A stretch of DNA of 64,000 nt from Squalus acanthias (Eukaryota): NCBI GenBank assembly GCA_030390025.1, contig CM059431.1, forward strand, positions 152,460,001 through 152,524,000, read 5' to 3'. Shown one piece after another: positions 15,971 through 31,660 of this stretch. The translations under genes and the position numbers were made by a program. The notes beneath the pieces are model-generated. The model was not told where the DNA came from. It was given only the letters and a program-made list of their open reading frames with translations, and did not search any database. Each line of letters starts with the position of its first letter. The stretch's first letter is position 1.

Positions 15971-15974
15971 AACA

Positions 15975-17188
15975 GGGGGGGGGGGGAGAACTCTAGAATG
16001 CTCAAGAGAAAAGACAAGAAAACAGTGCAGGAAAGTAATTGGGGTAAGGATAACCAGATTGTGTCAGGAAGGGACAGAGCGTAGAAACAACGAAGTGCAC
16101 TAAAAAATAGGGACCGGGTAAGAAAAAATGGTAATAAACAAATTGGGACATAATAAAAAAAAATGTTTAATATGTCTAAAAATGTTAAAAATACAAATCT
16201 AAAGGCACTGTATCTGAATGCACGAAGCATTCGTAATAAGGTAGACGAACTAACAGCGCAAATAGATGTAAATGGATACGATATCATTGTGATTCCGGAG
16301 ACCTGGCTGCAGGGTGTCCAAGACTGGGAGCTGAATATCCAAGGATATTCGATATTAAGGAAGGACAGGCAAAAAAGAAAAGGAGGTGGGTGGCTTTGTT
16401 AGTAAAGGAAGTAATCAGAGCAATAGTGACAAAGGATATTGGCTCAGAAAATCAAGATGTAGAATCAGTCTGGATGGAGCTAAGAAGCCCAAGGGGCAGA
16501 ACACATTGGTGGGAGTTGTCGAAAGGCCTCCAAAGAGTAGTGCTATTTTAGGGGATGGAATCAAACTGGAAATTATAGATGCATGTAAAAAGGGTACTAT
16601 AGTAATCATGTGTGACTTTAATCTACATATAGACTGGCTAAACCAAATTAGCAATAATACTGTGGAGGATGAATTCCTGGAGTGTGTACGAGATGTCTTT
16701 TTGGATCAGTACGTTGAGGAGCCAACTGGGGAACAGGCTATCCTAGATTGGGTATTGTGCACTGAGAAGGGTTTAAATAATAATCGTGTTGTGCAGAGTC
16801 CTTTAGGGAAGAGAGACCAGAACATGAGGAATTCTTCATTTAGATGGAATGTCATGAAGTTCAATCCGAAACTAGGGTCCTAACTCTAAACAAAGGAAAC
16901 TACGAAGGTATGAGGAGTGAGTTGGCTATGATAGATTGGGGAGCTTCATTAAAAGCCATGCTGGTCGATAGGCAGTGGCTAACATTTTGGGAACAAATGC
17001 ATGAATTGCGACAGTTATACATTCCTTGCTGGCGCAAAACACAAAAGGAAAAGCAGCCCAAACATGGCGAACAAAATAAATTAAGTATAGTATTAGATCC
17101 AAAGGGGAGTCATATCAAGTTGCCAGAAAAAGCAGGCTGTAAAAGCTTCTACAAGTATGTAAAAAGAAAAAGATTAGTGAAGACAAAT
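15975..17188 (+). mobile_element. CR1 LINE ORF2 5' part (endonuclease), interrupted by the provirus
   Basis: YLNARSIRNKVDEL, ETWL, DFN and ILDWVL motifs; reading continues at 29881. Confidence 0.85.
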
Positions 17189-18813
17189 TGTAAGGGATTC
17201 TGACCCTGCGTGTCTCGCAGCCTGTGAGATTCACGTGGCTCTGTGCAGCCTGTATGTCAGTGCGGGTCTAGGCCTTGTTGCCTGTTCTGGTCTCCAGCCA
17301 GTCTGGGAACACTAGACACACCTGTGAGTGGTTCGAATCACTCGCCCTTACGGTTCTAGACACTGGACTTAGATGCGAGAGCAGTAATGGAGATAAAACT
17401 CATGTAGACTCGGTTTGAATGGTACGAAATGGAAAATCATTATTGCATGATACTTAAGATTATGAAATACATGTCATAAGCACAGATTAATGACAGTACA
17501 ATCTTACAAGCAGTTATATAGTCGATCTTAGGGAAACGAGGAACGAACGGCACACAGTAAATAGGGGCACACATTACAAATATCCTTAATCCTTAAACCC
17601 TCCCCTATCAATATCTATCCTAACTAGATTCGTAGGATTTCGAGACTCATGCTCACCACTCGTGATAACTCGGAGCAATTCCGAATAGCTGATCGGATGT
17701 TTTTCACCGCAGCACCCACGTGTTGGTCAGGAGATCTCCTGGTCCCACTTGTTTACTTGCTTCTGCTGCTCCGGCTAGCAGGCTGGACCGTCTGCTGTGA
17801 TGAAGACCTGTGTTGGTTGGTTTAACAGGTACTTTTCCGAGCACAGTTGTCAATATCATCGATGTGATATGTTCTTTGCAAGTTCGAAGAAGTCTTCCTG
17901 GCAAGGAAAACTTGGCTGTTCGACCTACAGGCGCGGTCGGGATTTACTGACCGTGGCGATGAATATGGTCTTCCTCTCTTCTCATCTCATCTCATCTCAT
18001 CTCATCTCGGGCCTTTGGTTCCGCTGCCAGTTACCAACATAGGTCTTCGTTACGCGACACGAGGTAGATCCGAACGGATCAGAAAGTTCAACAGTCCTTT
18101 TCAAAGAGTCAACAGGCAAGCAGGAGCCCGACTACGAGTACACAGGAGCAGCCACGAGGTTACGAGTCGATCGGATAAGAGAAAGATGGACGGTTTGGAG
18201 CCTGCAATTATAGTGCAAAATCTTCCGTTTCCCGCCCAACCTTAATGTCCATTCTTTTGTTCAGGGTCTGGCGCTCAAATGTCTTGTATGGGTGATTTCC
18301 GTTCTTAATGGGTTTCGGGGCTACTCGTAAATGTCTGAGTACCTGTTAATATTTCTCCCATTGTTAAATCGGTCGGTGTTCTCCCTGGAGGGGTTGTGGG
18401 GCTTCCAAGTGTTTTGTATAACTACCTGTTAACGGCTCTCTCATCGTAGAGTCGTTGGGATTTTACATATTAATGTCTTTTGGATGGGCCCTTGATTACT
18501 CGGTACAATGGCTTTCATTTGTACCTGGGAGACCGATTTCAGTATTTATGTGTATACTGCAAACCAATAATGTCTCGTGTATTATCTTCACTGTGCTGAA
18601 TCTTAATCGATCTTGCACAAATGTTTATTGGAACGCCATCTTGTCTGCCTGTTGAAAAGTCTAGAATGTTCTGTCACGAGGTGCGGCGGCCATTTTACAG
18701 GCTGCTTGTGTCCACTTTAAACCTGGCAGCATTCTGCTGAAATAAAAGCTGTTTGAACGAAACTCTGTGTTTTCTCCTTATTAATAAAATCGCGATATAT
18801 TGCGAATTCTACA
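17189..18813 (-). repeat. 3' LTR (1625 bp)
   Basis: Direct repeat of 28251-29880; TG...CA termini. Confidence 0.97.
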
Positions 18814-18825
18814 GTCCCTCCTGTT
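18814..18825 (-). other. Polypurine tract
   Basis: Minus strand AACAGGAGGGAC immediately precedes the TGTAG start of the 3' LTR. Confidence 0.7.
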
Positions 18826-19263
18826 GATGCGAATAACTCCGCTTATCGTATCAAAAATCATAGTGGTGAGCAATATTATCTCGATTTCTCTCCGAATCCA
18901 GCAAATTAATCCCATAATTTTAACCTAGCTAGGGTCTCTGTGTCGTCCTTATTTCCCAAGAAAATTACATTTTATATCACCGTAGGCATTATTTGCCCTT
19001 AAACTTACACCACTTGTTTTCCTTCCCGGCGTAACCAGGCCGATGCCTCTCGTATCACCTGTATATTCATCTTTTATTCAGGGAAAGGAAAAACAAAACC
19101 CAAAACCAAACAATCATTTTTAACTGTAACACCATTACCAAAATAATCAACACCAACTCTTAAAACATGTCGAGTTCCCAACGTATTTACAATCTCTGAA
19201 AATCATGATCGAGTACAAACTTCCGCGGCGCACGTGGCGAGCGGGAGTGACGCCATTTTCCGA

Positions 19264-21615
19264 TCACACGGTGCTTTCATCATGCACGCGCACGTAACGT
19301 TCTCGCCACTCTCCCGTGTTTTCATGCTTGGTGAGGCGCTTGTCTCTTTTACAATGTACGACCAATAGGTACACTACAATGAAAACTTGGCATACGACTA
19401 AAATGTGGAAGGCTATTCTGATCCATGAGGGCACTTCAATATTGGTGAACAGATTCCACCACGGTGGAACTACTATATCCAGAATGTCTGTCCCTATTTC
19501 GACAGTTTTCTGTTCTAATGTGTAAAAATGTTTCTGTGATACCGCGACGGCTTTTAAAAGTTTGGTGAGGTGTTCAGGGAGAGGGGGAATGAGGTATCCA
19601 AAATGCGCGACGAATCGCTGCAAGTCGGTGAAATTCTCTTTTACTGTGAGATGAACAGTGGATGGTTCAGGGATTGGGACAATTCGCTGTTGTGCTACTT
19701 GAACTTCCGCCCTGGGTTTAAAACAGAAACTGCTGTCACTCACCGGACACCGGCTGCGGTTTCCATGCTGGTAGTGTTGCGCTGCAGTGGTAACACAATA
19801 TGTTCCACCCCCGATGTATGCTACCTGCGGAGGCACATGATCTTGTGCCATTGCCTCCATGGTGCAATTCATGGACTTGGCGCCAGTCGTTCTGAACCCA
19901 CACTGTAGTGTTAAAAAGGCATTCAAGTGCTGGGGGCACAGTATTATGTGTGCTCCCCTGCCACGACAACCAGAGAGATCTGTACCTGTCATCGTTTGCT
20001 CCCAGCGGATGACGTAAGGTGGAACCGCTGCATAACGAATGTGGGCTCCCCCCTGAATGACACCAATGTTCTCTACCCGATACACCGGGGCGGGCTTTGG
20101 TGTGTCGCCCAAAACCGGCATGCGTAATACTATTCCCATAATAGTATGGTTTGATCGTCCGCAGTCCACGGGGACTGGGTATGCTTCTGAAGCTAGCCTG
20201 AGCTGGCACGGACTTAATGCGTTCTGAAAAGGGTGGAGCGCCCGCAGGTGTTTGTTACTTATCCAGGACGGAACCAAACCTTGTTTTAAATCCTCCAGAT
20301 TACTGCGGCCCTCGCCCAGTAACCACGCCCCGTAAAGCACGCACACCTCGTTCTGCGCAGCTTGATCGGATGCATTCCGATCTTCCCTAATCAGGGCATT
20401 TACCGTTTTTGCATGTTTCACCAGCTCTGCTATAATTTCCTTTAAATGGAGAGTCATGGCTTGGTCCTCGTGTAAACCTGACCCTACCACTTTATTCTCA
20501 TCTGTTAGAATGTCTTTTAATTGTGTCTTTAAACCATTAATCTGGGTCTGCAGCTCCACACTGTCTAGAGCGTTGACCACAGATGTACCCGTGTTAAAAG
20601 TAGTGAACGCATCGTTCACCAAACCCCTTCTTTGCCTCCCTACTTGATCCAAAACTTCCTGTGGTGCGGTGTACAAACTTGTTTTATCAATTTCCGCGAA
20701 ATCGAATTCGTAAAATTGTCTGCACATCTTGGTCAACAGGACCTGATACAACTGTTCCGTCTTTTTGGGGCACCACTCTGGTAACCGCACCTCGGTGAGA
20801 TTTAAAATCACCGAGGCCACCGCGTAATGTACTCCCTGAAATAGTATCTGGTCTGTGGGGACCAGTACCAAACCATTCCCGGGTCCCTTACTAGTTTTAG
20901 GGCACCCTTCTTCCTCAGCTAGAACCACCGGAATCGTGGGCGGGGCTTTGCGTGGGCGCGTAATGAGCTCAGTGGCATTTACTGGGATCGGGGAGAATGG
21001 GGCTCCGCACCCCCTGGTGCTCGCATCCCACCTCATCCCCTGTCCGTTATCCTGCCATTGATTAATGAAAAATATGGAGATGCCTTTGGGGCAAACGTAC
21101 TTTGACCCCCACATACATACATAAATTCCCTCGTCCGGTTCCCACCATTTGTCCCAACAGACTTTCACTTGTCCGTTTGTCCCCGTAATTGTCCGATGGG
21201 TATTATTACCCAGTCGTTCCCACTCGACCGAAGAGTTCCTCATAGTTTTGCTCAGCTTTCGCAGCCACCACCATCGGCTCAATGGGACATTCCCACTACA
21301 AGTCAAACAAATCCGTTTGCCGACGGTGACGCTGATCCTGGGTGCGATGATCCTTACTTTGGGGCACAGTAAAGAAGTCTCTTTGTAGGCAAACCCCGAT
21401 GTGCTAGAATACTCCGTTGAGTTCGTTCCCAGCCATCCTGGCCACCTTCCCTTGTGGAAATAGGTGCTGGTCTCCTCTGCCTCCCGTCTTCTGGTCCCAT
21501 CCACCGCGATGGGGGCCGTGTCCCCGGAACATCCAAACACCACAACATCCTTGGTGCGGCCTCGATAGGCCAATCCACATCCGATTGCCGCGAGCAATAC
21601 TAGAATTCGTTCCAT
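19264..21615 (-). CDS. env: Envelope/fusion glycoprotein (783 aa from ATG 21615; open frame extends to 21798): signal peptide, Ig-like domain, F-type fusion module, TM anchor
   Basis: Signal peptide MERILVLLAAIGCGLA; RQRR furin site (20637-20626) followed by fusion-peptide/heptad region; Cys-rich region; multiple N-glycosylation sequons; C-terminal TM IAFHILVVCQVFIVVYLLVV. Confidence 0.9.
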   Translation of the reverse strand: MERILVLLAAIGCGLAYRGRTKDVVVFGCSGDTAPIAVDGTRRREAEETSTYFHKGRWPGWLGTNSTEYSSTSGFAYKETSLLCPKVRIIAPRISVTVGKRICLTCSGNVPLSRWWWLRKLSKTMRNSSVEWERLGNNTHRTITGTNGQVKVCWDKWWEPDEGIYVCMWGSKYVCPKGISIFFINQWQDNGQGMRWDASTRGCGAPFSPIPVNATELITRPRKAPPTIPVVLAEEEGCPKTSKGPGNGLVLVPTDQILFQGVHYAVASVILNLTEVRLPEWCPKKTEQLYQVLLTKMCRQFYEFDFAEIDKTSLYTAPQEVLDQVGRQRRGLVNDAFTTFNTGTSVVNALDSVELQTQINGLKTQLKDILTDENKVVGSGLHEDQAMTLHLKEIIAELVKHAKTVNALIREDRNASDQAAQNEVCVLYGAWLLGEGRSNLEDLKQGLVPSWISNKHLRALHPFQNALSPCQLRLASEAYPVPVDCGRSNHTIMGIVLRMPVLGDTPKPAPVYRVENIGVIQGGAHIRYAAVPPYVIRWEQTMTGTDLSGCRGRGAHIILCPQHLNAFLTLQCGFRTTGAKSMNCTMEAMAQDHVPPQVAYIGGGTYCVTTAAQHYQHGNRSRCPVSDSSFCFKPRAEVQVAQQRIVPIPEPSTVHLTVKENFTDLQRFVAHFGYLIPPLPEHLTKLLKAVAVSQKHFYTLEQKTVEIGTDILDIVVPPWWNLFTNIEVPSWIRIAFHILVVCQVFIVVYLLVVHCKRDKRLTKHENTGEWRERYVRVHDESTV

Positions 21616-21904
21616 CCTTCCTTGGTTCCTGTGATCAGATAGAATGAGGTAGCCAGCCTCGCAAGAGTCTCTGGCTTCTGTGAAGGGTGAGCGGGTCCCC
21701 TGACCTCGCCTCACGTAAACTTCAACGTTCGCTGAATAAACTTTAACTAAACCTATCCTTAAAGCTCCCATCATTTTATCGTTTTCTGTTAAAAACACTA
21801 CAATCTTAACCTTATCAAAAAAACTATAAACTTAACCTTGAACTATAAACTTAAGACTTAAAACTTATAACTTTACAGTGCCGCCCGTTCTCAGGGCGGC
21901 CCCT

Positions 21905-24900
21905 TTAAATTCTGAGAAGGCTGCTGCGAGCTCTTCCCGACGGTGGGAGGGCACTGACCCTTCCCTTTGATCTGCCGCAGCCTGTTGCTGCACTGACCCC
22001 TTCCTCTGATCTGCCGCAGCCTGTTGCTGCTGCGATGGGGCCGGGCTGTATCTGGGTTGCCTTAACCTTAAGTCTACGCCTTGGGGCAGTCTGGGGACAT
22101 GACCACATCCTCCTGGGCTGGGGTTCTCTACTTGACCTACGGGGAGTTGCTATGGGCGGGGGTTCCGTGACGGACGGACCGGGTTCCGAGACTTCCATCG
22201 GGATGACCTGGGGTTCCATCACAGTCGCTGGCTCCGCCTCCGCTGACTCCGCCTCCCTAACCTCGGGGCTTGCAGTTTGTGGCCCCGCCCTGCTCGGCCC
22301 AGCAGGCGGCCCTTCACTCGTGATCTCTGCCTCCCCCGAGGGCGGGACGTTCAAAACGGGCGGCCACATCTCTGGGAGCCACACCGGTACTCTCTGTGCT
22401 CCCATAGCGGCTGGCCCTGCCTCCCCTAGCTCCTCCCTCCTGTCTTCGGGACCTGCAGCTTGTGTGTCCACCCTGTGTGGATCTCTACCTGCAGCCCCCG
22501 TTCCCTCCATATCGTAAATGGGACCGTTCCTGAGAAACCACCCGTCGTCATCACTATTCTCATCTGCACTGTCCTCATCTGACCCGGGTACCCTGAATTC
22601 TTCCTCATCTAACCCCCAATTCCAGAAAAACGCTGCATGATCGTCCGGGATGTCCCTTCCCCTGATGCAAGCTGCTATGCCTGCCTGTGTGCCTTGTGGT
22701 CCTACCTGGGGCTGTGCTTTCCCACTGGCGGGATTTACCCCTGTAGTTTTCCCCTGCGCACCTGGCTGGTACAGTTTGCATTGGTTTATGTGGAACCACT
22801 TAGTGCGCCGAGGTACTTTTACGGCGTAAACCATGGGACTCACCTTGTCTACAATGTTGTAGGGTCCCATATACAGTGGTTCCAGACTCCCTACTCTGGC
22901 GTAGTTTCTGACCATGACCTGGTCTCCTACTTCCCACTCCCGCGTTTTGCGGGGTTCCAGCAACAAGCGATTGCCCTGATGCTGCCTTCCCATGTTCCCA
23001 GCCGCCTGCTCATAAACCTGTTTCAGGCGCTCCAAGAGAGTCTGGGCGAACTTGTCCCTGCTTATCTCTTGGAGCTGACCCTCAGTGAGCACCGGCGCTA
23101 GCACATGGGTGGGGGTTCGCATGAGCCTCCCAGTCATTACCTCGTGCGGGGAGTACCCCGTACTTTTTGACTGACTGGCCCGGACCCCCATGAGGACTAA
23201 AGGCAGAACCTCCGCCCATTTTTGGGGCGAGTTCCTAGTCTCTTTCCTCAATTTCTCCTTCAGGGTCCGGTTCATACGTTCAACAATCCCGGATGACTGG
23301 GGATTGTGTGCTACGTGCCACTTCCCTTCAATGCCCAAAAGCATGAGGGTGTTCTGCATCACCTGGCCGGTGAAATGACTCCCTTGGTCTGACTCCACAA
23401 AACGGGGAAGTCCCCACCGCGAGAACACTTCCCGGACCAAGATTTTTGCTGTACCCAGTGCCGTAGCTGTTCGACAAGGGAAGGCTTCCACCCACTTGGA
23501 AAACACATCCACCAGGACGAGGCAGTACTTATAACCTCCCTGGGTGGTGGGCAGGGGTCCTATGTAGTCGATCTGTATCGACTGCCATGGTCCCTCTACC
23601 CTTCTTACGTGTCCCATGGGCACCTTCCTTTTCTGGGGGTCTGGGTTGTTTGCAGCGCACACAAGACAGCTTGCACAGAACTCGCGGACTTGTTCCCTGA
23701 GCCCTGGCCACCATCCCGCTTGCTCTACCCGTTGCCAGGTAACCTCGGGCCCGGGGTGCCCTGCCCCTGGTCCCTCGTGAGCCAACTGGAGGAATTCCCT
23801 CCTGTGCTGCTGCGGCACAACCCACTGCTCCTCGCGGAACAGCATGCCTTCCTTAACTGAGAGGGTTGCCGTACTGTACGGACCTTCTACCTGTCTCCCC
23901 TCAGCAATGGTTTTTAGGACTGCTTTTAGGGCGGGATCCTGGGCTTGGACGGTCTTAAGGTCTAGGGGCAATGCTACCCTGGTGTTCCCGGGATTCCCGT
24001 CCCTGCCTCGGACCGCTGCTATGGGTCTGGTCCCATAGGGGTTCCAGAAAATGCCGTTGCGGGCACCTTCCCTGGCTAGCGCATCCGCCTGCTGGTTGCC
24101 CTCCCCACGGGGCTCTGTGGAGGAGTGAGCTTTCACCTTATGGATGAAAATCTCTCCTTCCTCTCCTACTGCTGCTGCTAAGATCTTTTCCAGCAAGGGC
24201 TTCACCGTTAAAGGTCGCCCGTCCGCGGAGGTGTATCCACGGCGGGACCAAATGGCCAGGTATTCCGTACACGAATTGCAGGTGAACATACTGTCCGAGC
24301 AAATCGTGTATGGGGTTGGGAAAATGTCTGGGTGGGTAACAACGTACACCACGGCAGACAGCTCAGCCTGCTGCGCGCTCATGGTGCTGGGGAGCTTGAT
24401 CGCCAGGGCAAGGTTTGCCGCAGGGTCATAAACTCCACACCCTGTGAGTCGTTCGCCAGCAGATACTGTGCTAGACCCATCAACATAAATCTCGCGCCCA
24501 GTGGGATGTATCCCGGCCCGTAAACCTATGTTGACGTCCCACACCCCTTCCACCGAACTGGCTGTACCGGGGTATACCAAATTGGCCGCAAGCCTGGGCT
24601 CGCAAAGACCTTTTACTCTAAGATCCAAATGGGAGAGAAGAAGGGTCCAGCGCGCAATGCGCACGCTGCTTACGGTCCCATCTTTAATCCTCCCATCCAG
24701 AAGCATCTTAGTTGGTGTGTGATGTGTGAGGAGAGTGATGGGAGAGAGCCCTATGAAGATCGCTGATCTTTTCACAGCCCAATGCGTGGCTAAAAGGTGC
24801 CTTTCGCAATTGGAGAAACTTCTCTCCACATCCGTTAACACCCTGGATGAATAGACAACCGGCCTCAGCTTGCCGTGACGCTCTTGGAGCAGCACAGCGC

Positions 24901-26434
24901 TCAAGCTGTCTCCGCTGGCAGCTACCTCCAGGAAAAACTCCTTCCCCCCATCTATGGCCCCTACGGCTGGCGCGGTCTGCAGATCCCCTTTTAACTTCTC
25001 GAAGGCTGCTTGGCAGCCCTCGTCCCAAGACCACTCCACCCCCTTATGGAGGAGTCGGAGGAGCGGCGCTGCTGTGGCCGCATAGTCTTCGATAAAATCC
25101 CTGCAGTAACCGGTCAGTCCCAAGAAGGACCTCACACCCCTTACGTTGTTGGGAATCGGTAATTCTTGCACCGACTCCCTCCTTGCTTTGTCTATGGCTC
25201 TTTCCCCAGCGCGTATGGTCAGTCCCAGGAATTTTACTTCCCGCTGACCGATACGTGCTTTCTTAGGATTTATTTTAAAACCCTTTCTCGCTAGCAGCTC
25301 CAATAACTCGTCCAGTAGTGGTCCATGCTCCTCCCTTGAGTCCGTAAATAGGAGCAAATCATCCACATACTGCACTATCTGATTGGGCTGACTAAACTCC
25401 TTTAAACTTCCTGCCATACACTGATGAAAAATACTGGGGCTATTGTGGAAACCCTGTGGCAGACAGTTCCATGTGTACTGTTGTCCTTTGAAAGTAAAGG
25501 CAAACTTGTACTGGTCCTCTCGCCGCAGCGGGATGGACCAAAAACCGTTCGAGATATCCAGCACCGTGAACGTGGTCGCGGACGCTGGGATGCTTCCTAT
25601 TAGGTCAGCAACTGCTGCTACCGTGGGCGCGCAGGCGGGAATGTTACTGTTAAGGACTCTGTAGTCCACCGTGGCTCTCCACGAATTATCCGGCTTCCTA
25701 ACCGGCCATAATGGGGAGTTCACGTGTGTGGCTATCGGCCTCAACACGCCCTGCTGCACCAAGGAAGACATTGCTGTCTCCATATCGGGTTCTGCTTCTT
25801 TGGGGAAGTTATACTGCTTTTGGGGTCGGGTCATGGGGTCCCCATCTACGCTGACCTCAAACCCGACAACCCTCCCACAATCGTGCTTGTGGGTTGCAAA
25901 CGCGTGCATATTATCTGACACGTACGTTTGCATGTCCGTTGGGACATCTGCGACCATAAGCCTGAGGTCGTAGCCTCCGGATGGCTGTACGGTACACAGG
26001 ACCCCTGTTTCTTCCTCCCCCGGAATCACTATTACCTCGCCTTTTTCACCTTTAGCCCCCCAGAGACAGTGATTTCTGAGGTCCACGAGGATCCCGTGTC
26101 CCGATAGGAGATCAGACCCGAGAATACCTCTTCCACCCCCCTCCTGCCATGCCATCAGTATACACTTCCACTTAAGGCGAAGTGTTCCTAAACGAATGGA
26201 TAGCGGAAGGGAAAACGTGCCAGCCTGTTCTTTTCCTGTGAACCCCGCTAACGTGAATGGGACCTTGGTAGATAGCGGCGAGTCAAAAGGGTTATCTGTA
26301 TGGATTATGGTGCAAGAAGCTCCCGTGTCCAACAAATAACTACCCCTCTGTTTCTCTACCTCCATTTCCACCAAAGGTCGCTTCCACGCATCATAGCTAA
26401 GCGGACACAGGTAGACGGGCTGCGCCGGTTCTAG
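21905..26434 (-). CDS. pol: Pol polyprotein: protease, RT, tether, RNase H, integrase, low-complexity C-terminal extension (in frame with gag)
   Basis: LLDTGA protease; LPQGF and YVDD (25369-25358) RT; YVDGSS/AQQAEL/SDS/GNQQAD RNase H; HHCC, IDYIG-SDQG-IVERMN DDE and GPY integrase motifs; no internal stops. Confidence 0.97.
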   Translation of the reverse strand, partial: LEPAQPVYLCPLSYDAWKRPLVEMEVEKQRGSYLLDTGASCTIIHTDNPFDSPLSTKVPFTLAGFTGKEQAGTFSLPLSIRLGTLRLKWKCILMAWQEGGGRGILGSDLLSGHGILVDLRNHCLWGAKGEKGEVIVIPGEEETGVLCTVQPSGGYDLRLMVADVPTDMQTYVSDNMHAFATHKHDCGRVVGFEVSVDGDPMTRPQKQYNFPKEAEPDMETAMSSLVQQGVLRPIATHVNSPLWPVRKPDNSWRATVDYRVLNSNIPACAPTVAAVADLIGSIPASATTFTVLDISNGFWSIPLRREDQYKFAFTFKGQQYTWNCLPQGFHNSPSIFHQCMAGSLKEFSQPNQIVQYVDDLLLFTDSREEHGPLLDELLELLARKGFKINPKKARIGQREVKFLGLTIRAGERAIDKARRESVQELPIPNNVRGVRSFLGLTGYCRDFIEDYAATAAPLLRLLHKGVEWSWDEGCQAAFEKLKGDLQTAPAVGAIDGGKEFFLEVAASGDSLSAVLLQERHGKLRPVVYSSRVLTDVERSFSNCERHLLATHWAVKRSAIFIGLSPITLLTHHTPTKMLLDGRIKDGTVSSVRIARWTLLLSHLDLRVKGLCEPRLAANLVYPGTASSVEGVWDVNIGLRAGIHPTGREIYVDGSSTVSAGERLTGCGVYDPAANLALAIKLPSTMSAQQAELSAVVYVVTHPDIFPTPYTICSDSMFTCNSCTEYLAIWSRRGYTSADGRPLTVKPLLEKILAAAVGEEGEIFIHKVKAHSSTEPRGEGNQQADALAREGARNGIFWNPYGTRPIAAVRGRDGNPGNTRVALPLDLKTVQAQDPALKAVLKTIAEGRQVEGPYSTATLSVKEGMLFREEQWVVPQQHRREFLQLAHEGPGAGHPGPEVTWQRVEQAGWWPGLREQVREFCASCLVCAANNPDPQKRKVPMGHVRRVEGPWQSIQIDYIGPLPTTQGGYKYCLVLVDVFSKWVEAFPCRTATALGTAKILVREVFSRWGLPRFVESDQGSHFTGQVMQNTLMLLGIEGKWHVAHNPQSSGIVERMNRTLKEKLRKETRNSPQKWAEVLPLVLMGVRASQSKSTGYSPHEVMTGRLMRTPTHVLAPVLTEGQLQEISRDKFAQTLLERLKQVYEQAAGNMGRQHQGNRLLLEPRKTREWEVGDQVMVRNYARVGSLEPLYMGPYNIVDKVSPMVYAVKVPRRTKWFHINQCKLYQPGAQGKTTGVNPASGKAQPQVGPQGTQAGIAACIRGRDIPDDHAAFFWNWGLDEEEFRVPGSDEDSADENSDDDGWFLRNGPIYDMEGTGAAGRDPHRVDTQAAGPEDRREELGEAGPAAMGAQRVPVWLPEMWPPVLNVPPSGEAEITSEGPPAGPSRAGPQTASPEVREAESAEAEPATVMEPQVIPMEVSEPGPSVTEPPPIATPRRSSREPQPRRMWSCPQTAPRRRLKVKATQIQPGPIAAATGCGRSEEGVSAATGCGRSKGRVSALPPSGRARSSLLRI

Positions 26435-28246
26435 TCATGGGGTACTATTAGACGGTCCTGCGGCACCTACAGGGCCGGTTGCGACCGCCACCTGTCCACG
26501 CGCACTCAAGATTAGATTGCGCATGGCTCCTAACACTACTTCGAGGTCGTCAGGAGGGGTGCGTGCCTTAGCTTCCTTAGCCGGGACAGGCGCCTGGGCT
26601 CGGACCGTGGGATTTTTATCCTTGGAATCCTTCCAAGGGTTCCTGCAATGCTTGCGCCAGTGCCCTGTCTTCCCACACCCGTAACAAGCATTACCTGCCT
26701 GTGGGGCGCGATTACCCTCCTGATGCCACTCTCTTTGATACGGGGCTGCGGGTCGTACCTCATGTCCTCTTCCCTTAAGGGGACGTGTTGCCATACCCCT
26801 TATATTGCGATAACCTAACGTGAGTCGATTCAAGACCGACTCTTCCGTAATGTTGGGGTCATTGGGATCAAACCATGCTTTTGCCTGCTCTCTGACGGCT
26901 GGTAAACTGTTGGCTATTATGCACCTAAGCCAATGAGTTAAAGCGGTGCCTTCCACATCTTCGCGCTCGGGCGCACCTAGGCAGCTGCGCTCATATACTG
27001 GCCACAGCCTGTCGGCAAAAACCTTCGGGGGTTCTCCCTCCATCTGCACTGTCTGTCCCACTCTAGCAAACGGACCTTCATCGTTCGCCCCCAACACTTC
27101 CAGGACCTCATCCCTCAATTCCTCATAAGTCTTGGTTCCCCTCTTGCTCTCGCCCGAGAGACACTGGAGAACCGAGCTGTCTAGTGAGAACAGCAGCATT
27201 TTTGCTGTCTCCCCATCATCGCAGCCGTTGATGGCTGCGGCTTGCTCAACTTCTCTGAAATGTACGGAAGGGTCGTCTGACTCGGTCAGCTTCCGTACGT
27301 GATTTATCATAGCTCTCAGCTGATGTGAGCTGTGAGGCAACACCAGCTGTCCGAGGAGATCCCCCGGTTCTTCCCCACCGTTTCTGTTTGGGCCCCTTTT
27401 AATGCCCGTTACTGGATACAACGGTCCCTTTCCTACTTCTTTTTCAATGGGCTCTTTTGTTTCTTCCATTGCTTCCTCCCTTACCCAGGTTTCCGAATAG
27501 CTGGGTGGCGCGGAGGGCGCAGTGGCTACTACTTCCTCTGCTTTACTTGGTGGGGATTTCTTAAACTTCTCACTTACTAACGGCTGGTGTGCTGACGGAC
27601 TGATCAGGCACACCATGCCGTTCGCTTTGTTTACGGCCTTCTTGAGGTGCTCTATCTCCCTTTGGCAGGCGCTATGGTCGGCTCCCTCAAACTTATCCTT
27701 AAGGGCCAACTTATATGCCGCCCTAACCCCCGTTAAGCTCTCTTCTTGAGTTCTTATCTGGGCAGCTTGGCGGTTACATCTTTCCTTTAACCTGCTCTCA
27801 TTCAACTTTGCCTCAGTGACCTGGCACTCGAGATAATCTATCCTTGTTTTAAGGTGACTGGAGATTTCCTGGCTTTCTTGGTGCAACTCATTTAAATTCT
27901 TAATGAGCACCTCCACTCCAGAAACCTTCTCATCCATTTCTCCCTCTAAATGACTGATTCGAGCTACTAGCGCTGTAATGGTCTGGTTTGAAATCTGAAC
28001 CTGCCTTTTGTAACACATAAGCCAGACTGCTTTCTCAAGTGTCTTTCTAAGTTCTTTACTATCTGTCCACCTTTCGGCTGCCTCTAGCGGGCTTTTATCC
28101 GCTAACAATTCACTTATCCATTTCTTAGTTAGATTAACCTTTCCAAACACATAATCTGCTATCTTTTCCTGCATAACATTTCGTACAGTCATTCCAAAGT
28201 CTAACACACTACCCTCTCGCTGCCAGTGTCCTGCCGCGGTCGCCAT
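26435..28246 (-). CDS. gag: Gag polyprotein (up to 603 aa)
   Basis: Lies directly after the PBS; heptad-rich N-terminal half, PSAPPSY, single CCHC knuckle CYGCGKTGHWRKHC (26686-26645). Confidence 0.93.
   Translation of the reverse strand: MATAAGHWQREGSVLDFGMTVRNVMQEKIADYVFGKVNLTKKWISELLADKSPLEAAERWTDSKELRKTLEKAVWLMCYKRQVQISNQTITALVARISHLEGEMDEKVSGVEVLIKNLNELHQESQEISSHLKTRIDYLECQVTEAKLNESRLKERCNRQAAQIRTQEESLTGVRAAYKLALKDKFEGADHSACQREIEHLKKAVNKANGMVCLISPSAHQPLVSEKFKKSPPSKAEEVVATAPSAPPSYSETWVREEAMEETKEPIEKEVGKGPLYPVTGIKRGPNRNGGEEPGDLLGQLVLPHSSHQLRAMINHVRKLTESDDPSVHFREVEQAAAINGCDDGETAKMLLFSLDSSVLQCLSGESKRGTKTYEELRDEVLEVLGANDEGPFARVGQTVQMEGEPPKVFADRLWPVYERSCLGAPEREDVEGTALTHWLRCIIANSLPAVREQAKAWFDPNDPNITEESVLNRLTLGYRNIRGMATRPLKGRGHEVRPAAPYQREWHQEGNRAPQAGNACYGCGKTGHWRKHCRNPWKDSKDKNPTVRAQAPVPAKEAKARTPPDDLEVVLGAMRNLILSARGQVAVATGPVGAAGPSNSTP
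28228..28245 (-). other. Primer-binding site complementary to tRNA-Arg(UCG)
   Basis: TGGCGACCGCGGCAGGAC, 5 nt after the LTR end; complement of the vertebrate tRNA-Arg-TCG 3' end GUCCUGCCGCGGUCG-CCA (recalled sequence). Confidence 0.85.
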
Positions 28247-28250
28247 TTTC

Positions 28251-29880
28251 TGTAAGGGATTCTGACCCTGCGTGTCTCGCAGCCTGTGAGATTCACGCGG
28301 CTCTGTGCAGCCTGTATGTCAGTGCGGGTCTAGGCCTTGTTGCCTGTTCTGGTCTCCAGCCAGTCTGGGAACACTAGACACACCTGTGAGTGGTTCGAAT
28401 CACTCGCCCTTACGGTTCTAGACACTGGACTTAGATGCGAGAGCAGTAATGGAGATAAAACTCATGTAGACTCGGTTTGAATGGTACGAAATGGAAAATC
28501 TTTATTGCATGATACTTAAGATTATGAAATACATGTCATAAGCACAGATTAATGACAGTACAATCTTACAAGCAGTTATATAGTCGATCTTAGGGAAACG
28601 AGGAACGAACGGCACACAGTAAATAGGGGCACACATTACAAATATCCTTAATCCTTAAACCCTCCCCTATCAATATCTATCCTAACTAGATTCGTAGGAT
28701 TTCGAGACTCATGCTCACCACTCGTGATAACTCGGAGCAATTCCGAATAGCTGATCGGATGTTTTTCACCGCAGCACCCACGTGTCGGTCAGGAGATCTC
28801 CTGGTCCCACTTGTTTACTTGCTTCTGCTGCTCCGGCTAGCAGGCTGGACCGTCTGCTGTGATGAAGACCTGTGTTGGTTGGTTTAACAAGTACTTTTCC
28901 GAGCACAGTTGTCAATATCATCGATGTGATATGTTCTTTGCAAGTTCGAAGAAGTCTTCCTGGCAAGGAAAACTTGGCTGTTCGACCTACAGGCGCGGTC
29001 GGGATTTACTGACCGTGGCGATGAATATGGTCTTCCTCTCTTCTCATCTCATCTCATCTCATCTCATCTCATCTCGGGCCTTTGGTTCCGCTGCCAGTTA
29101 CCAACATAGGTCTTCGTTACGCGACACGAGGTAGATCCGAACGGATCAGAAAGTTCAACAGTCCTTTTCAAAGAGTCAACAGGCAAGCAGGAGCCCGACT
29201 ACGAGTACACAGGAGCAGCCACGAGGTTACGAGTCGATCGGATAAGAGAAAGATGGACGGTTTGGAGCCTGCAATTATAGTGCAAAATCTTCCGTTTCCC
29301 GCCCAACCTTAATGTCCATTCTTTTGTTTAGGGTCTGGCGCTCAAATGTCTTGTATGGGTGATCTCCGTTCTTAATGGGTTTCGGGGCTACTCGTAAATG
29401 TCTGAGTACCTGTTAATATTTCTCCCATTGTTAAATTGGTCGGTGTTCTCCCTGGAGGGGTTGTGGGGCTTCCACGTGTTTTGTATAACTACCTGTTAAC
29501 GGCTCTCTCATCGTAGAGTCGTTGGGATTTTACATATTAATGTCTTTTGGATGGGCCCTTGATTACTCGGTACAATGGCTTTCATTTGTACCTGGGAGAC
29601 CGATTTCAGTATTTATGTGTATACTGCAAACCCATAATGTCTCGTGTATTATCTTCACTGTGCTGAATCTTAATCGATCTTGCACAAATGTTTATTGGAA
29701 CGCCATCTTGTCTGCCTGTTGAAAAGTCTAGAATGTTCTGTCACGAGGTGCGGCGGCCATTTTACAGGCTGCTTGTGTCCACTTTAAACCTGGCAGTATT
29801 CTGCTGAAATAAAAGCTGTTTGAACGAAACTCTGTGTTTTCTCCTTATTAATAAAATCGCGATATATTGCGAATTCTACA
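28251..29880 (-). repeat. 5' LTR (1630 bp)
   Basis: Direct repeat of 17189-18813 with one extra CTCAT unit; AATAAA at 28506-28501. Confidence 0.97.
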
Positions 29881-31660
29881 AAATGTAGCTCCGTTACATT
29901 CAGACACTGGAGAATTTATAATGGGCAAAAAGGAAATGGCTGAGCAAATAACAAATACTTTGGTTCTGTCTTCACGGATGGGACAAAAATAACTTCCCAG
30001 AAATGCGAGGGAACCAAGGGTCTAGTGAGAAGGAGGAATGAAAGGAAATTAGTATTAGGAAAAAAACAGTGCTGGAGAAATTAATGTGACTGAAAGCCGA
30101 TAATCTGCATCACAGAGTACTCAAAGAGGTAGCCATGGAAATAATGGATGCATTGGTTGTTATCTTCCAGAATTCTATAGATTATGGAACAGTTTTTCAG
30201 ATAATTGGAGGGTGGCAAATATAACCACATTATTTAAAAAGGGGAGGAGAGAGAAAACAGGGAACTACAGACTAACATCAGTAGCAGGAAAAATATTGGA
30301 GCCTATTATAAAGGATGTGATAACAGGAGAATTAGAAAATATCAACTGGATTAGACAAAGTCAACTTGGATTTTTGAAAGGGAAATCGTGTTTGACAAAC
30401 CAACTGGAGTTTTTGGAGGATGTAACTGGTAGAATAGATAAGGGAGAAACAGTGGATTTGGTGTATTTGGATTTTCAGAAGGCCTTTGATAAAGTCCCAC
30501 ATAAGAGGTTAGTGAGTAATATTAAAGCACATGGGTAGGGGTAATATACTGGCATGGATTGAAAATTGTTTAACAGCCAGGAAACAGAGAGTAGGAATAA
30601 ATTTGTTTTTTCGGGGTGGCAGGCGGTTACTAGTGGGGTACCGCAGGGATCAGTGTTTGGGTCCCAACTATTCACAATATATATCAATGAATTGGATGAG
30701 GGAACCAAATGTAATATTTCCAAGTTTGCTGACGACACGAAGCTAGGTGGGATTGTGAGTTGTGAGGAGGATGCAAAGAGGCTTCAAGGCGATTTAGACA
30801 AGTTGAGTGAGTGGGGACATACATGGCTGATGCAGTATAACTTGGATAAATGTGACGTTACCCACTTCGGTAGGAAAAACAGAAAGGCAGAGTATTATAT
30901 AAATGGTGATAGATCGGGAAAAGCTGATGTACAAAGCGATCTGAGTGTCCTTGTACACCAATCACTGAAAGCAAACATGCAGTTGCAGCAAGCAGTTAGG
31001 AATGCAAGTGGTGCGTTGGACTTCATTGCAAGAGGAATTGAGTACAGGAGCAAGTATGTGTTACTACAGTTATACAGGGCCTTGGTGAGACCACACCTGG
31101 AGTACTGTGTGCAGTTTTGGTCTCCTTACCTAAGAAAGAATATACTTGCCATAGAGGGAGTGTAGCGATGGTCCACCAGACAGATTCCTGGGATGGCAGG
31201 AATGTCGTATGAGGAGTGATTGGGTCGACTATGCCAGTATTCACTAGAGTTTAGAAGAATGAGAGCGGATCTCATTAAAACGTATACAATTCTGATAGGG
31301 CTTGTCAGGCTTGATGCAGGGAGGATGTTTCCCCTGTTTGGGAGGACTAGAATGAGGGGTCACAGTCTCAGGATACGGGGTAGGACATTTAGGACTGAGA
31401 TGAGGAGAAATTTCTTCGCTCAGAGGGTGGTGAACCTGTGGAATTCTCTACCACAGAAGGCTGTGGAGGCTAAGCCACTGAATATATTTAAGAAGGAGAT
31501 AGATAAATTTCTAGACACAAATGTCATCAAGGGGTATGGGGAGAGAGCGGGGATATGGTATTGAGATAGAGGATCAGCCATGATCACATTGTAGGCAGAG
31601 CAGGCTCGAAGGGCCGAATGGCCTACTCCTGCTCTTATTTTTCTATGTTTCTATATTTCT
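29881..31660 (+). mobile_element. CR1 LINE ORF2 3' part and tail (continuation of 15975-17188)
   Basis: YLDFQKAFDKVPH, SGVPQGSV, FADDTKLGG and LVRPHLEYC motifs; TTTCTATG-type tail. Confidence 0.9.

What the first reader, a model, noticed from the sequence alone, without database searches (positions are those of the whole stretch)
17189..29880. Intact, young lokiretrovirus-like provirus in a probable cartilaginous fish
Seen: complete LTR-PBS-gag-pol-env-PPT-LTR with all ORFs open, a perfect AAAT TSD, and the host CR1 rejoining across it. Known: lokiretroviruses are a retrovirus sister lineage with tether plus second RNase H and an Env resembling Mononegavirales F proteins; as I recall they were reported from lampreys, bony fishes, amphibians and reptiles. 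Inferred: this element has that combination in a genome with shark-type repeats, so it may be a new, potentially replication-competent lineage or a host-range extension.
Basis: partly seen in the sequence, partly recalled or inferred. Interest (0 to 1): 0.92.

Follow-up and report, generated by a model that had tools for sequence, protein, structure and literature searches.

The report
Young shark provirus, not a lokiretrovirus
This is a complete, recently inserted endogenous retrovirus in what looks like a shark or ray genome, one of about a thousand near-identical copies, and it belongs to an early-branching group of ordinary retroviruses, not to the lokiretroviruses, although its envelope protein does fold like the fusion protein of measles-type viruses.

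Summary
Window 17189-29880 (minus strand) is a full provirus: two 1.6-kb LTRs differing at 10 bases and one 5-nt gap, an AAAT target duplication, PBS, gag, in-frame stop, pol, env and PPT, inserted in a CR1-like LINE.

The lokiretrovirus reading does not hold. In a careful RT tree rooted on Ty3/gypsy, the element lies on the canonical-retrovirus side (100/99). It groups with frog, coelacanth and shark elements, next to a snakehead-retrovirus proxy. AU tests reject a clade with the lokiretrovirus proxies (p 0.003 and 0.002). Its RT carries LPQG, not the loki PFGY.

The F-like Env is real at fold level: top hit hPIV3 F, E 6e-11. It is not loki-specific, because walleye epsilonretrovirus and foamy virus Envs also match.

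The copy is not unique. The LTR-PBS junction occurs 975 times and the LTR end 1,903 times, so solo LTRs are few. In 10 sampled copies, 9 evaluable LTR pairs differ at 0-5 bases. Four of the 10 are a gag-env derivative with one shared pol deletion.

SnRV-like and foamy-like ERVs are already reported from cartilaginous fish, including a frog-shark clade known from pol only. This is a new, very young, high-copy member of a known kind.

The parts
29881..29884 (.). Target-site duplication AAAT, on the upstream side of the element
   Evidence: A 4-bp duplication was also perfect in 8 of 9 evaluable sampled copies.
28251..29880 (-). 5' LTR, 1630 nt, TG...CA. TATATAA at LTR nt 1299 and AATAAA at nt 1375 suggest a U3 of about 1.3 kb.
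   Evidence: The promoter and poly(A) roles are inferred from motifs only.
28228..28245 (-). Primer binding site, 18 nt, complementary to the tRNA-Arg(TCG) 3' end. It lies 5 nt after the LTR.
   Evidence: One search gives the sequence. One search finds 426 host sites holding the complementary tRNA 3' part. ARAGORN calls tRNA-Arg (tcg) at 2 of 2 loci examined.
26435..28246 (-). gag, 603 aa from the first ATG, which overlaps the PBS, so the true start is uncertain (other Met at residues 19 and 25). It has an N-terminal coiled-coil-like region, PSAPPSY late-domain motifs at residue 244, one CCHC knuckle (aa 521-534) and a UGA stop.
   Evidence: Pfam gives no significant family. The nearest Atlas clusters are Retrotrans_gag/PEG10/zf-CCHC at score 0.92, which is a lead only.
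26429..26437 (-). gag stop in the context UGA-CUA-GAA, read in frame into pol: a presumed translational readthrough site
   Evidence: The context is kept in 5 of 5 sampled full-length copies. UGACUAG is named as a readthrough context in PMC13517186 (passages). Readthrough was not tested.
21905..26434 (-). pol, 1509 aa stop to stop. Domains in window coordinates: protease 26386-26099, RT 25702-25214, tether 25027-24629, RNase H 24493-24062, integrase zinc domain 23818-23642, integrase core 23590-23300, weak GPY/F-type SH3 22897-22769. A tail of about 260 aa (22687-21908) has no family.
   Evidence: PDB matches: XMRV/MLV RT-RNase H 224-229 bits, foamy virus PR-RT 206-223 bits, PFV integrase 119 bits.
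19264..21774 (-). env, 836 aa. It has a hydrophobic signal-like stretch at aa 57-69, a poorly modelled N-terminal part with a weak Ig-like signal (aa 133-222), an F2-like strand region from aa 290, an RQRR cleavage motif at aa 380-383 (20626-20637), long heptad helices, a Cys-rich beta core, and a membrane anchor at aa 784-806 (19357-19425).
18814..18825 (-). Polypurine tract (AACAGGAGGGAC) abutting the 3' LTR
   Evidence: The function is inferred from position.
17189..18813 (-). 3' LTR, 1625 nt
17185..17188 (.). Target-site duplication AAAT, on the downstream side of the element
16157..17188 (+). Left half of the interrupted host CR1-like LINE (endonuclease part, frameshifted)
29885..31165 (+). 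Right half of the interrupted CR1-like LINE (linker and reverse transcriptase)

Best explanation
This is a full-length endogenous provirus of an early-branching lineage of canonical retroviruses. Its nearest relatives are elements in frogs, the coelacanth and sharks or rays. Snakehead retrovirus (SnRV) is the nearest named exogenous virus that I could place.

Inferred life cycle:
- Host tRNA-Arg(TCG) primes reverse transcription at the PBS.
- Gag carries late-domain motifs and one zinc knuckle.
- Occasional readthrough of the gag UGA, in a UGA-CUAG context, gives Gag-Pol with protease, RT, tether, RNase H and integrase.
- Integrase makes 4-bp target duplications.
- Env is a furin-type-cleaved class I fusion protein of the paramyxovirus-F / foamy-virus-Env kind ('class Ib'), with an extra N-terminal head that probably binds the receptor.

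The window's copy is one of about a thousand proviruses of a family that has spread very recently in this genome. A gag-env derivative that lacks all enzymes has spread with it and must be copied in trans.

Shown: the anatomy, the domains, the tree position relative to the loki and gypsy proxies, the Env fold match, the copy numbers, the LTR-pair divergences and the target duplications.

Inferred: readthrough, the primer tRNA in use, Env cleavage and receptor binding, trans-mobilisation and present-day activity.
For: Anatomy and domains.

RT tree (careful, 57 rows, 268 columns).
- Eight gypsy rows form the outgroup (100/100).
- Three lokiretrovirus proxies form a clade (100/98).
- The other 46 rows form a clade (100/99). 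It holds this element, the SnRV proxy P0124, MLV-like rows and ERV-L-like rows.
- The element sits in an 11-row group (91/83) with proteins named from Xenopus tropicalis, Aquarana, Pyxicephalus, Rhinophrynus and Latimeria.

AU tests. A clade of the element plus P0004 with the loki proxies gives p 0.0031. The 11-row group with the loki proxies gives p 0.0024.

Labels.
- P0124's RT matches the SnRV row of the published alignment almost letter for letter.
- P0142 and P0154 match the Loki rows.
- P0129 matches an unnamed alignment fragment shown just before the SnRV row. That this fragment is Loki-Aro is my guess. P0129 carries PFGY and clusters with P0142 and P0154.
- All comparisons were made by eye.

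RT identity to the element: own group 45-54%, SnRV proxy 44%, loki proxies 34-39%.

IN tree: quick, and the same order.

Env.
- 48 relatives at E<=1e-3. Named ones come from six elasmobranch genera, two frogs and Latimeria.
- AF2 model: pLDDT 60.6 overall, and mostly 80-96 in residues 290-360 and 470-700.
- Foldseek against the PDB: hPIV3 F 6.1e-11, followed by RSV, Langya, NDV, Nipah and Hendra F.
- BFVD: mononegaviral and baculoviral F-type proteins, WEHV-1 Env 2.7e-9, WDSV Env 2.9e-7, feline foamy virus gp130 3e-4.
- The Env profile's best PDB sequence hit is 8ozh 'Envelope glycoprotein' (E 0.006). That this is a foamy virus Env is my recollection.
- It is followed by gp130 chains 8rm1 and 8rm0 at E 0.074 and 0.097.

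Family size and age.
- 975 LTR-PBS junctions and 1,903 LTR ends, with 0 control hits each.
- 53 of the 54 best-scoring env matches and 69 of the 73 best-scoring gag matches have no stop.
- Only the best candidates were scored, so these are not family-wide rates.
- In 10 copies picked before their content was seen, 9 evaluable LTR pairs differ at 0-5 bases.
- 8 of 9 of those copies have perfect 4-bp duplications.

Priming and readthrough: PBS and tRNA; UGA-CUAG.
Against: Missing references. The tree has no named foamy virus, lentivirus, or alpha-, beta- or deltaretrovirus, and no XtrFLERV, CmiFLERV or CmiERV sequence. The exact place among basal canonical lineages is therefore open.

Weak nodes. 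The nodes that order the element's group, the SnRV proxy and the rest are weak (95/64 and 89/79). The 11-row group itself is unstarred (91/83).

Labels and test design. The SnRV and loki labels rest on my reading of a PDF alignment, not on accessions. The 11-row AU group was named after the tree was seen.

Loki-like or gypsy-like features.
- The integrase C-terminus gives weak SH3_Tf2-1 and Integrase_p58_C hits, as the loki proxies do. It lacks the MLVIN_C hit seen in the SnRV proxy.
- IN identity is higher to the loki proxies (37%) than to the SnRV proxy (31%).
- The Env fold class is the one reported for lokiretroviruses.

Model quality. The Env model is poor overall: pTM 0.43, with 348 of 836 residues under pLDDT 50.

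Unproven activity. Recent activity is inferred from one assembly. Insertional polymorphism and transcription were not shown.
Confidence: 0.75

Rival explanations
1. It is a lokiretrovirus: a member of the sister lineage of sampled retroviruses, newly found in cartilaginous fish.
For: It has a dual RNase H. Its Env is F-like in fold. It has a GPY/F-type integrase C-terminus like the loki proxies. IN identity to the loki proxies is 37%, against 31% to the SnRV proxy. Its relatives occur in frogs and the coelacanth, which also host lokiretroviruses (PMC7947760).
Against: In the RT tree the element lies in the 46-row canonical clade (100/99), apart from the loki clade (100/98). Both AU tests reject the union (p 0.0031 and 0.0024). 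The RT has LPQGF where the published loki RT rows I read have PFGY. Neither this Env nor any of 18 scanned relatives hit PF00523 by sequence at E<=0.1, unlike the published loki Env. The 2020 screen found 0 loki elements in 6 chondrichthyan genomes, including 3 Orectolobiformes (supplement), although an Env relative of this element is named from Chiloscyllium punctatum. Whether that species was among the genomes screened was not checked.
Confidence: 0.06
2. It is a true endogenous foamy virus (Spumaretrovirinae), that is, a cartilaginous-fish EFV.
For: The best PDB integrase match is PFV integrase at 119 bits. The Env profile's only sub-0.01 PDB sequence hit, 8ozh, is a foamy virus Env by my recollection, followed by gp130 chains. 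Feline foamy virus gp130 is among the BFVD fold matches. The literature places frog and shark 'foamy-like' ERVs together (PMC5512871, passages). A cartilaginous-fish EFV paper exists, but I saw its title only.
Against: Gag has a CCHC knuckle. pol lies in the gag frame behind a single stop. The lack of Cys-His boxes in foamy Gag and the separate pol mRNA are my recollection. The PBS is tRNA-Arg, whereas most mammalian foamy viruses use tRNA-Lys (PMC5512871 passage). No accessory ORFs follow env. The RT differs from the SFV, BFV, EFV and CoEFV rows at their shared motifs, by eye. RT-RNase H similarity to foamy virus and to MLV/XMRV is about equal. No foamy sequence could be put in the tree.
Confidence: 0.15
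3. It is an env-carrying Ty3/gypsy retrotransposon (errantivirus-like), not a retrovirus.
For: The Env features are nearest to Gypsy/Baculo_F clusters in the Atlas, at 0.95. The integrase has H2C2 and GPY/F-like parts. The top PDB hit for pol is Ty3 at 249 bits.
Against: The gypsy rows are separated by a 100/100 branch in the RT tree and by 95 in the IN tree. The element has a degenerate tether plus an added RNase H. PMC13524379 (passage) reports no intact vertebrate ERV homologous to the invertebrate elements.
Confidence: 0.02

Closest known systems
Frog-shark 'foamy-like' ERVs, XtrFLERV and CmiFLERV (Aiewsakun & Katzourakis 2017, PMC5512871, passages read)
   Same: They form a deep-branching retroviral clade that joins a frog (Xenopus tropicalis) with a cartilaginous fish. 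The element's nearest RT and IN relatives include two X. tropicalis proteins, other frogs and Latimeria.
   Different: That paper could detect no gene other than pol in X. tropicalis and C. milii. Here gag, pol and env are all open, the Env fold is assigned, and the family is young and high-copy. Identity with that clade was not tested, because I held none of their sequences.
Snakehead retrovirus (SnRV) and SnRV-related ERVs: clade 'Huo' of Xu et al. 2018 (PMC6001957), and CmiERV lineage I of Han 2015 (PMC4422223)
   Same: It is on the canonical-retrovirus side of the tree, and the SnRV proxy branches next to the element's group. Its RT is 44% identical. gag and pol are joined by stop-codon readthrough (PMC13517186 passage). 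SnRV-like ERVs are already reported from a cartilaginous fish.
   Different: It is not the direct sister in my tree. SnRV has UAG-GGC at the gag stop where this element has UGA-CUAG. The SnRV proxy's integrase has an MLVIN_C hit that this element lacks. The elephant-shark copies were dated at 54-75 My, whereas these LTR pairs are almost identical.
Lokiretroviruses (Wang & Han 2020, PMC7947760)
   Same: They share the LTR-gag-pol-env layout, the tether plus RNase H, an F-like Env and a GPY/F-type integrase end.
   Different: The RT clade differs. The RT motif is LPQG, not PFGY. There is no sequence-level PF00523 match. No smc gene was seen.
Foamy virus Env and paramyxo-/pneumovirus F ('class Ib' fusion proteins, PMC11468914)
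   Same: The fusion core has the same fold. There is weak sequence-profile similarity to 8ozh, which I recall as a foamy virus Env, and to the gp130 chains 8rm1 and 8rm0.
   Different: The extra, probably receptor-binding, part lies N-terminal to the F2-like strands, not between the subunits as described for foamy virus Env. A single C-terminal anchor is evident. The virus otherwise has orthoretrovirus-type Gag and Gag-Pol.

Membership tests
Lokiretroviruses | RT forms a clade with lokiretroviruses, outside the sampled canonical retroviruses | tested here: not met
   the element is in the 46-row canonical clade (100/99), and the loki proxies are a separate clade (100/98). AU p 0.0031 and 0.0024. 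The proxies were labelled by eye against the published alignment.
Lokiretroviruses | Env with detectable sequence similarity to Fusion_gly (PF00523) | tested here: not met
   No PF00523 hit for this Env at E<=10, nor for 18 of 18 relatives at E<=0.1. At fold level it is F-like, but so are the epsilonretrovirus and foamy virus Env models.
Lokiretroviruses | Tether (degenerate RNase H) plus a second RNase H | tested here: met
   The feature is shared with all retroviruses, so it does not discriminate.
Lokiretroviruses | Integrase groups with loki/CGIN1 integrases | tested here: inconclusive
   In the quick IN tree the loki proxies are apart (100) and the element is on the other side (SH-aLRT 92). 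Identity to loki IN (37%) nonetheless exceeds that to the SnRV proxy (31%). No CGIN1/NYNRIN reference was in the set.
Retroviridae (canonical, sensu Wang & Han) | LTR-gag-pol-env provirus with dual RNase H, and RT inside the canonical clade | tested here: met
   Caveat: that clade was sampled without named foamy, lenti, alpha, beta or delta references.
SnRV-related lineage | RT or Pol sister to snakehead retrovirus | tested here: inconclusive
   The SnRV proxy branches next to, not with, the element's group, and the nodes are 95/64 and 89/79.
Spumaretrovirinae | Gag without Cys-His knuckle, pol expressed separately, tRNA-Lys PBS, accessory genes after env | tested here: not met
   A CCHC knuckle is present. 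pol is in the gag frame behind one stop. The PBS is tRNA-Arg. There is no ORF after env. The list of foamy features is partly recalled.
Spumaretrovirinae / foamy-like ERVs | Pol clusters with foamy viruses and FLERVs | not testable with these tools
   No foamy virus or FLERV sequence could be brought into a tree. There is only PDB similarity: PFV IN is the best integrase hit, and PR-RT is about equal to MLV.
Gamma-/epsilonretroviruses | RT within the gamma/epsilon clade, MLV-type integrase C-terminal domain | tested here: not met
   The MLV-like rows are far from the element in the tree. There is no MLVIN_C hit. Shared features are gag-stop-pol readthrough and the 4-bp duplication.

The most novel reading that the evidence does not exclude
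This frog-coelacanth-shark clade branches between lokiretroviruses and the rest of the canonical retroviruses. It keeps a gypsy/loki-type integrase end and an F-type ('class Ib') Env alongside an orthoretrovirus-type Gag and Gag-Pol. Taken with the F-like Envs of lokiretroviruses, foamy viruses and epsilonretroviruses, this would mean that the F-type envelope was already present in the common ancestor of all retroviruses and was later replaced in the amniote-infecting genera, and not captured separately by each lineage. In addition, the family may still be infectious and moving in living elasmobranchs. It has about a thousand copies, almost no solo LTRs, many open env genes among the copies scored, and near-identical sequence in runs under several organism labels.
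Probability: 0.25. Interest if true: 0.75.

Novelty: new member of a known kind. Interest (0 to 1): 0.5.

Why it matters
It corrects an attractive but wrong label. An F-like envelope plus a dual RNase H is not enough to call a lokiretrovirus.

It also gives a complete, open gene set for a deep retroviral clade that one earlier survey could describe from pol alone. That gene set comprises Gag with late domains and a zinc knuckle, UGA-CUAG readthrough, a tRNA-Arg primer site, and an F-type Env with an added head.

It documents a very large and very recent burst in a cartilaginous-fish-like genome: about 975 proviruses, few solo LTRs, and a gag-env parasite derivative. A 2,004-genome survey of invading ERVs lists no chondrichthyan order among its 37 orders with such elements (PMC10435555, passages).

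If the clade's basal position holds, it bears on whether retroviral envelopes had one origin or several.

Tried and rejected
Env and Gag family searches.
- Pfam on Env and Gag gave no significant family.
- A single-sequence PDB search of Env gave only a weak JAM Ig-domain hit, E 0.79.

Finding named references.
- A word-index search with the RT region, meant to retrieve SnRV by name, returned no named exogenous virus. P0124 was recognised only by comparing its RT with the published alignment.
- Peptide look-ups in the Loki supplement for the Latimeria and Aquarana relatives found nothing. These relatives are therefore not the published Loki-Lch or Loki-Rca RTs.
- XtrFLERV and CmiFLERV appear in that supplement only as tree and table labels.
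- The cartilaginous-fish EFV paper (PMC9972966) is not held.
- One literature search was badly framed and gave only shark palaeontology.
- No paper among those listed for 'lokiretrovirus' (15 hold the term, 10 were listed) was seen to report them from cartilaginous fish. I checked PMC7947760, PMC9040795 and PMC13524379 for 'shark', and the first two also for 'Chondrichthyes'.

Sequencing runs.
- No RNA holder was listed.
- Seven runs are only guessed to be RNA. In the two that I laid (X7, X12), contig depth is several-fold higher over env and the LTR than over pol. Contig depth cannot rank genes, and the pol-deleted DNA variant would give the same picture.
- No leader-to-env joint was among the 15 joints listed.
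- Insertional polymorphism could not be read from contigs.

Other checks.
- ARAGORN finds no tRNA gene in the window.
- The loki proxies P0142 and P0154 carry no Env part, so no direct Env comparison with a lokiretrovirus was possible.
- Our-findings searches by sequence and by words added nothing beyond two Ig-head notes.
Full report
**1. The observation**

The element lies on the minus strand.
- Two direct repeats, 17189-18813 and 28251-29880, align over 1630 columns at 99.08% identity, with 10 mismatches and one gap. The gap is 5 nt.
- Each repeat starts TG and ends CA. The same four bases, AAAT, flank both ends.
- Between the repeats the minus strand holds three long frames:
  - gag, 28246-26435: 603 aa from the first ATG, 627 aa stop to stop.
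  - pol, 26434-21905: 1509 aa. It starts at the codon after the single gag stop, in the same frame.
  - env, 21774-19264: 836 aa.
- Pfam finds, in order along pol, a retroviral protease, RT, the degenerate RNase H-like tether, a second RNase H, the integrase zinc domain and the integrase core. It also gives weak hits to a GPY/F-type SH3 end.
- Gag has one CCHC knuckle and a PSAPPSY stretch.
- The flanks belong to one + strand non-LTR element. An endonuclease match lies on the left and two RT matches on the right.
- With one AAAT copy removed, that element's frame runs on for 35 codons.

**2. Priming and Gag-Pol**

- The 18 nt that start 5 nt after the 5' LTR are the complement of GTCCTGCCGCGGTCG plus CCA.
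- That 3' part, preceded by a T-loop motif, occurs 426 times in the host genome, against 0 times for the reversed control.
- At 2 of 2 loci examined, ARAGORN calls it tRNA-Arg (tcg).
- The first gag ATG overlaps this site, so the real start may be one of the Met codons at residues 19 or 25.
- The gag stop reads UGA-CUA-G.
  - The context is kept in 5 of 5 sampled full-length copies.
  - A 2026 review names UGACUAG as a readthrough context in human cells. It also lists SnRV, SSSV, ZFERV and a toad ERV among retroviruses with gag-pol readthrough (PMC13517186, passages).
  - Readthrough here is inferred.

**3. Is it a lokiretrovirus?**

The defining paper was read as follows: main text parts 1-2, the supplement searched, and one supplement part read (PMC7947760). 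It defines the group by an RT clade sister to the sampled retroviruses. Its supplement reports 0 of 6 chondrichthyan genomes with lokiretroviruses.

I could not type published sequences into tools, so I used stored proteins as proxies.
- P0124 (unnamed, 1362 aa) has an RT that matches the SnRV row of the published alignment almost letter for letter.
- P0142 and P0154 match the Loki rows.
- P0129 matches an unnamed alignment fragment shown just before the SnRV row. That this fragment is Loki-Aro is my guess.
- All of these were compared by eye.

The published Loki RT rows that I read carry ...CPFGY... The element, its relatives and the canonical rows carry ...LPQG....

*Careful RT tree.* It has 57 rows and 268 columns, uses LG+C20+F+G4, and is rooted on 8 gypsy rows.
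- The gypsy rows separate at 100/100.
- The three loki proxies form a clade at 100/98.
- The remaining 46 rows form a clade at 100/99.
- Inside that clade the element and P0004 (91% identical in RT) sit in an 11-row group (91/83). Its other members are named from Xenopus tropicalis, Aquarana catesbeiana, Pyxicephalus adspersus, Rhinophrynus dorsalis and Latimeria chalumnae.
- The SnRV proxy branches next, at the base of the rows that include MLV-like and ERV-L-like sequences (89/79).

An earlier quick tree of 82 rows gave the same picture. For the careful run I dropped 25 rows: near-duplicates, two long branches and some gypsy rows.

*AU tests.* They reject the element plus P0004 with the loki proxies (delta lnL 29.2, p 0.0031). 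They also reject the whole 11-row group with the loki proxies (delta lnL 25.7, p 0.0024). The second group was named after the tree was seen.

*Integrase tree.* A quick tree of 48 rows has the same order. The element's group forms a grade between the loki proxies and the rest.

*Points on the other side.*
- IN identity is 37% to the loki proxies and 31% to the SnRV proxy.
- The element shares weak SH3_Tf2-1 and Integrase_p58_C hits with the loki proxies. The SnRV proxy instead has an MLVIN_C hit.
- The set contains no named foamy virus, lentivirus, or alpha-, beta- or deltaretrovirus, and no FLERV.

My reading is a canonical retrovirus of an early-branching lineage, not a lokiretrovirus. Its exact neighbours are unresolved.

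**4. The envelope**

*Sequence level.*
- The word-index search gave only 3 relatives. One is named from the skate Rhinoraja longicauda (76% over 47% of the query). Two are chimeric models from the sawshark Pristiophorus japonicus.
- The exhaustive search gave 48 relatives at E<=1e-3.
- Ten were looked up. Their names come from Mustelus, Chiloscyllium, Heptranchias, Heterodontus, Pristiophorus, Pelodytes, Xenopus and Latimeria, and two are unnamed.
- This host range matches that of the pol relatives.
- None of 18 scanned relatives, nor the Env itself, matches Pfam Fusion_gly. One chimeric protein has a weak Baculo_F hit.

*Conserved layout.* An alignment of 33 sequences shows:
- a CP...GP...GL strand region;
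- an R-x-K/R-R site, RQRR at residues 380-383 here;
- a conserved post-cleavage segment;
- long helices;
- a Cys-rich core with ...Y.G.G.YCV.T...;
- a second helix;
- a membrane anchor.

*Structure model.*
- The AlphaFold model built on that alignment is poor overall: pLDDT 60.6 and pTM 0.43. It is confident in most of residues 290-360 and 470-700.
- Against the PDB, Foldseek matches hPIV3 F (6.1e-11), RSV F, Langya, NDV, PIV5, Nipah and Hendra F, over about 490-550 alignment columns.
- Against BFVD it matches the following:
  - F-type glycoproteins of mononegaviruses and baculoviruses;
  - the Envs of walleye epidermal hyperplasia virus 1 (2.7e-9) and walleye dermal sarcoma virus (2.9e-7);
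  - feline foamy virus gp130 (3e-4).
- The alignment profile's best PDB sequence hit is 8ozh 'Envelope glycoprotein' (E 0.006). That this is a foamy virus Env is my recollection.
- The gp130 chains 8rm1 and 8rm0 score 0.074 and 0.097.
- Protein-language features put the C-terminal 550 residues nearest to Gypsy/Baculo_F and Fusion_gly clusters, at 0.93-0.95. This is a lead only.

The foamy virus Env paper (PMC11468914, passages) already links foamy virus Env to F as 'class Ib'. My BFVD matches suggest the same for epsilonretroviruses. The feature does not mark lokiretroviruses.

The first ~290 residues are poorly modelled. They carry a weak Ig signal: Ig_3 at E 0.42 and JAM at E 0.79.

**5. The family in this genome**

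The window is part of a 3.71-Gb assembly.

*Copy numbers.*
- The 45-nt LTR-end/PBS junction occurs 975 times at up to 2 mismatches (control 0).
- A 32-nt LTR end occurs 1,903 times (control 0).
- That is close to two LTRs per provirus, so solo LTRs must be few.
- Among the best-scoring matches, which are the only ones scored, 53 of 54 env matches and 69 of 73 gag matches are 98-100% identical in protein and free of stops. These are not unbiased rates.

*A sample of ten copies.* I picked ten junctions from the listed zero-mismatch ones before seeing their content, and fetched them as two separate stretches each.
- Five are full length.
- Four are a 7.7-kb form that has lost element nt 3479-7092, with the same breakpoints in all four. 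The lost part covers protease through most of integrase. gag, the pol tail and env are kept.
- One carries a further deletion that also removes env.
- LTR pairs differ at 0-5 substitutions in the 9 evaluable copies. One pair is identical over 1654 nt.
- LTRs of different copies are only 94-97% like the window's LTR.
- Perfect 4-bp duplications flank 8 of 9 evaluable copies.
- Of the five full-length copies, gag is open in 5, pol is open at full length in 4, env is open at full length in 3, and all three are open in 2.
- The junction list also shows runs spaced about 11.05 kb or 7.7 kb apart. These are tandem units that share LTRs.

*Age of the window's copy.* It has 10 substitutions in 1625 nt, K = 0.006, and so is older than most of the sampled copies. 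At the 2.2e-10 per site per year that Han assumed for a chimaera (PMC4422223), this is about 14 My. At a mammal-like 2.2e-9 it is about 1.4 My. The host's rate is unknown.

**6. Other samples**

- Twenty listed runs from 9 studies hold the 4-kb env-pol query. Thirteen hold half of its sampled 31-mers or more, under five organism codes, A to E.
- I laid four of these runs, from organisms A, C and D. Their contigs cover all 30 bins, and some pieces show only 1-4 differences in 250-320 nt.
- Near-identical family members therefore exist in several samples and labels. I cannot say whether the labels are different species.

**7. What is known**

- Han 2015 reported three ERV lineages in the elephant shark. 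One clusters with SnRV, and the insertions were dated at 54-75 My (PMC4422223, first part of the text read).
- Xu et al. 2018 name an SnRV-related clade, 'Huo', found in all major vertebrate lineages (PMC6001957, passages).
- Aiewsakun and Katzourakis 2017 found that a frog element (XtrFLERV) clusters with shark elements (CmiFLERVs). They could detect only pol in both hosts (PMC5512871, passages).
- Song et al. 2023 built a catshark consensus ERV that they call Spuma-like (PMC10699275, passages).
- A J Virol 2023 paper on cartilaginous-fish endogenous foamy viruses exists, but I saw only its title.
- The 2,004-genome survey of ERVs with identical LTRs screened 13 cartilaginous fishes. Its list of 37 host orders contains no chondrichthyan order (PMC10435555, passages).

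Supplements that I could not see may already contain this family: those of the 2017, 2018 and 2023 papers, and the full alignments of the Loki paper, which are cut in the held copy.

**8. Verdict**

The provirus is real, intact and young. The lokiretrovirus label is not supported. The best description is a new, very young and very abundant member of a known, deep-branching fish-and-amphibian retrovirus group.

Three things are worth noting beyond that:
- a complete gene set for a clade previously seen as pol only;
- an F-type Env on a virus with an orthoretrovirus-type Gag-Pol;
- a burst of about a thousand copies, with a gag-env non-autonomous partner, in a cartilaginous-fish-like genome.

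Noticed in passing
Loci L001, L007, L015, L019 (and L013): A 7.7-kb non-autonomous derivative of the family has lost element nt 3479-7092, which covers protease through most of integrase. The breakpoints are identical in 4 of 4 such copies. It keeps gag, the pol tail and an env about 98% identical in protein to the window's. A fifth copy is deleted further and lacks env. Together these are half of my 10-copy sample.
   Followed up: partly
G000 C3:117796860-117819003, C1:143659754-143675240, C9:91703441-91727264 (listings): LTR-PBS junctions recur at regular spacings of about 11.05 kb or about 7.7 kb. These look like tandem arrays of proviral units sharing LTRs, not single insertions.
   Followed up: no
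G000 C26:38.99-42.2 Mb; loci L021, L022: The tRNA-Arg(TCG) 3' motif occurs 426 times. Most listed sites lie in long arrays with a 1,623-bp period on contig C26. One examined unit also holds a tRNA-Ser(GCT) gene. This is a very large tandem tRNA gene cluster, and it supplies the provirus's presumed primer.
   Followed up: partly
window 28244-28246 and 28228-28245: The first ATG of the gag frame lies inside the primer binding site, and the frame stays open back into the LTR (627 aa stop to stop). The true Gag start and the length of the leader are therefore unclear.
   Followed up: no
window 21908-22687 (-): The last ~260 residues of pol are a Pro/Gly/Ser/Glu-rich tail with no Pfam family. Most of the tail, from about pol residue 1215 onward, is retained in the pol-deleted derivative, where it follows the gag stop in frame. 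It may hold the env splice acceptor or have a function of its own.
   Followed up: no
window 42711-43661 (+): An uninterrupted 316-aa frame matches rhodopsin-family 7TM receptors (PF00001, E 1.8e-17). It is probably a single-exon host GPCR gene, about 13 kb from the provirus.
   Followed up: partly
protein P0093: One Env relative is a 545-aa protein with an N-terminal F-box domain and an Env-like C-terminal part that gives a weak Baculo_F hit (E 0.0011). It is either a chimeric gene model or a host gene that has captured part of an env.
   Followed up: no
window 14300-16400 and 30100-33400: There are several further decayed CR1-like LINE fragments on both strands around the insertion, with motifs such as FADDTKL and YLDF..AFD in the translations.
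   Followed up: no
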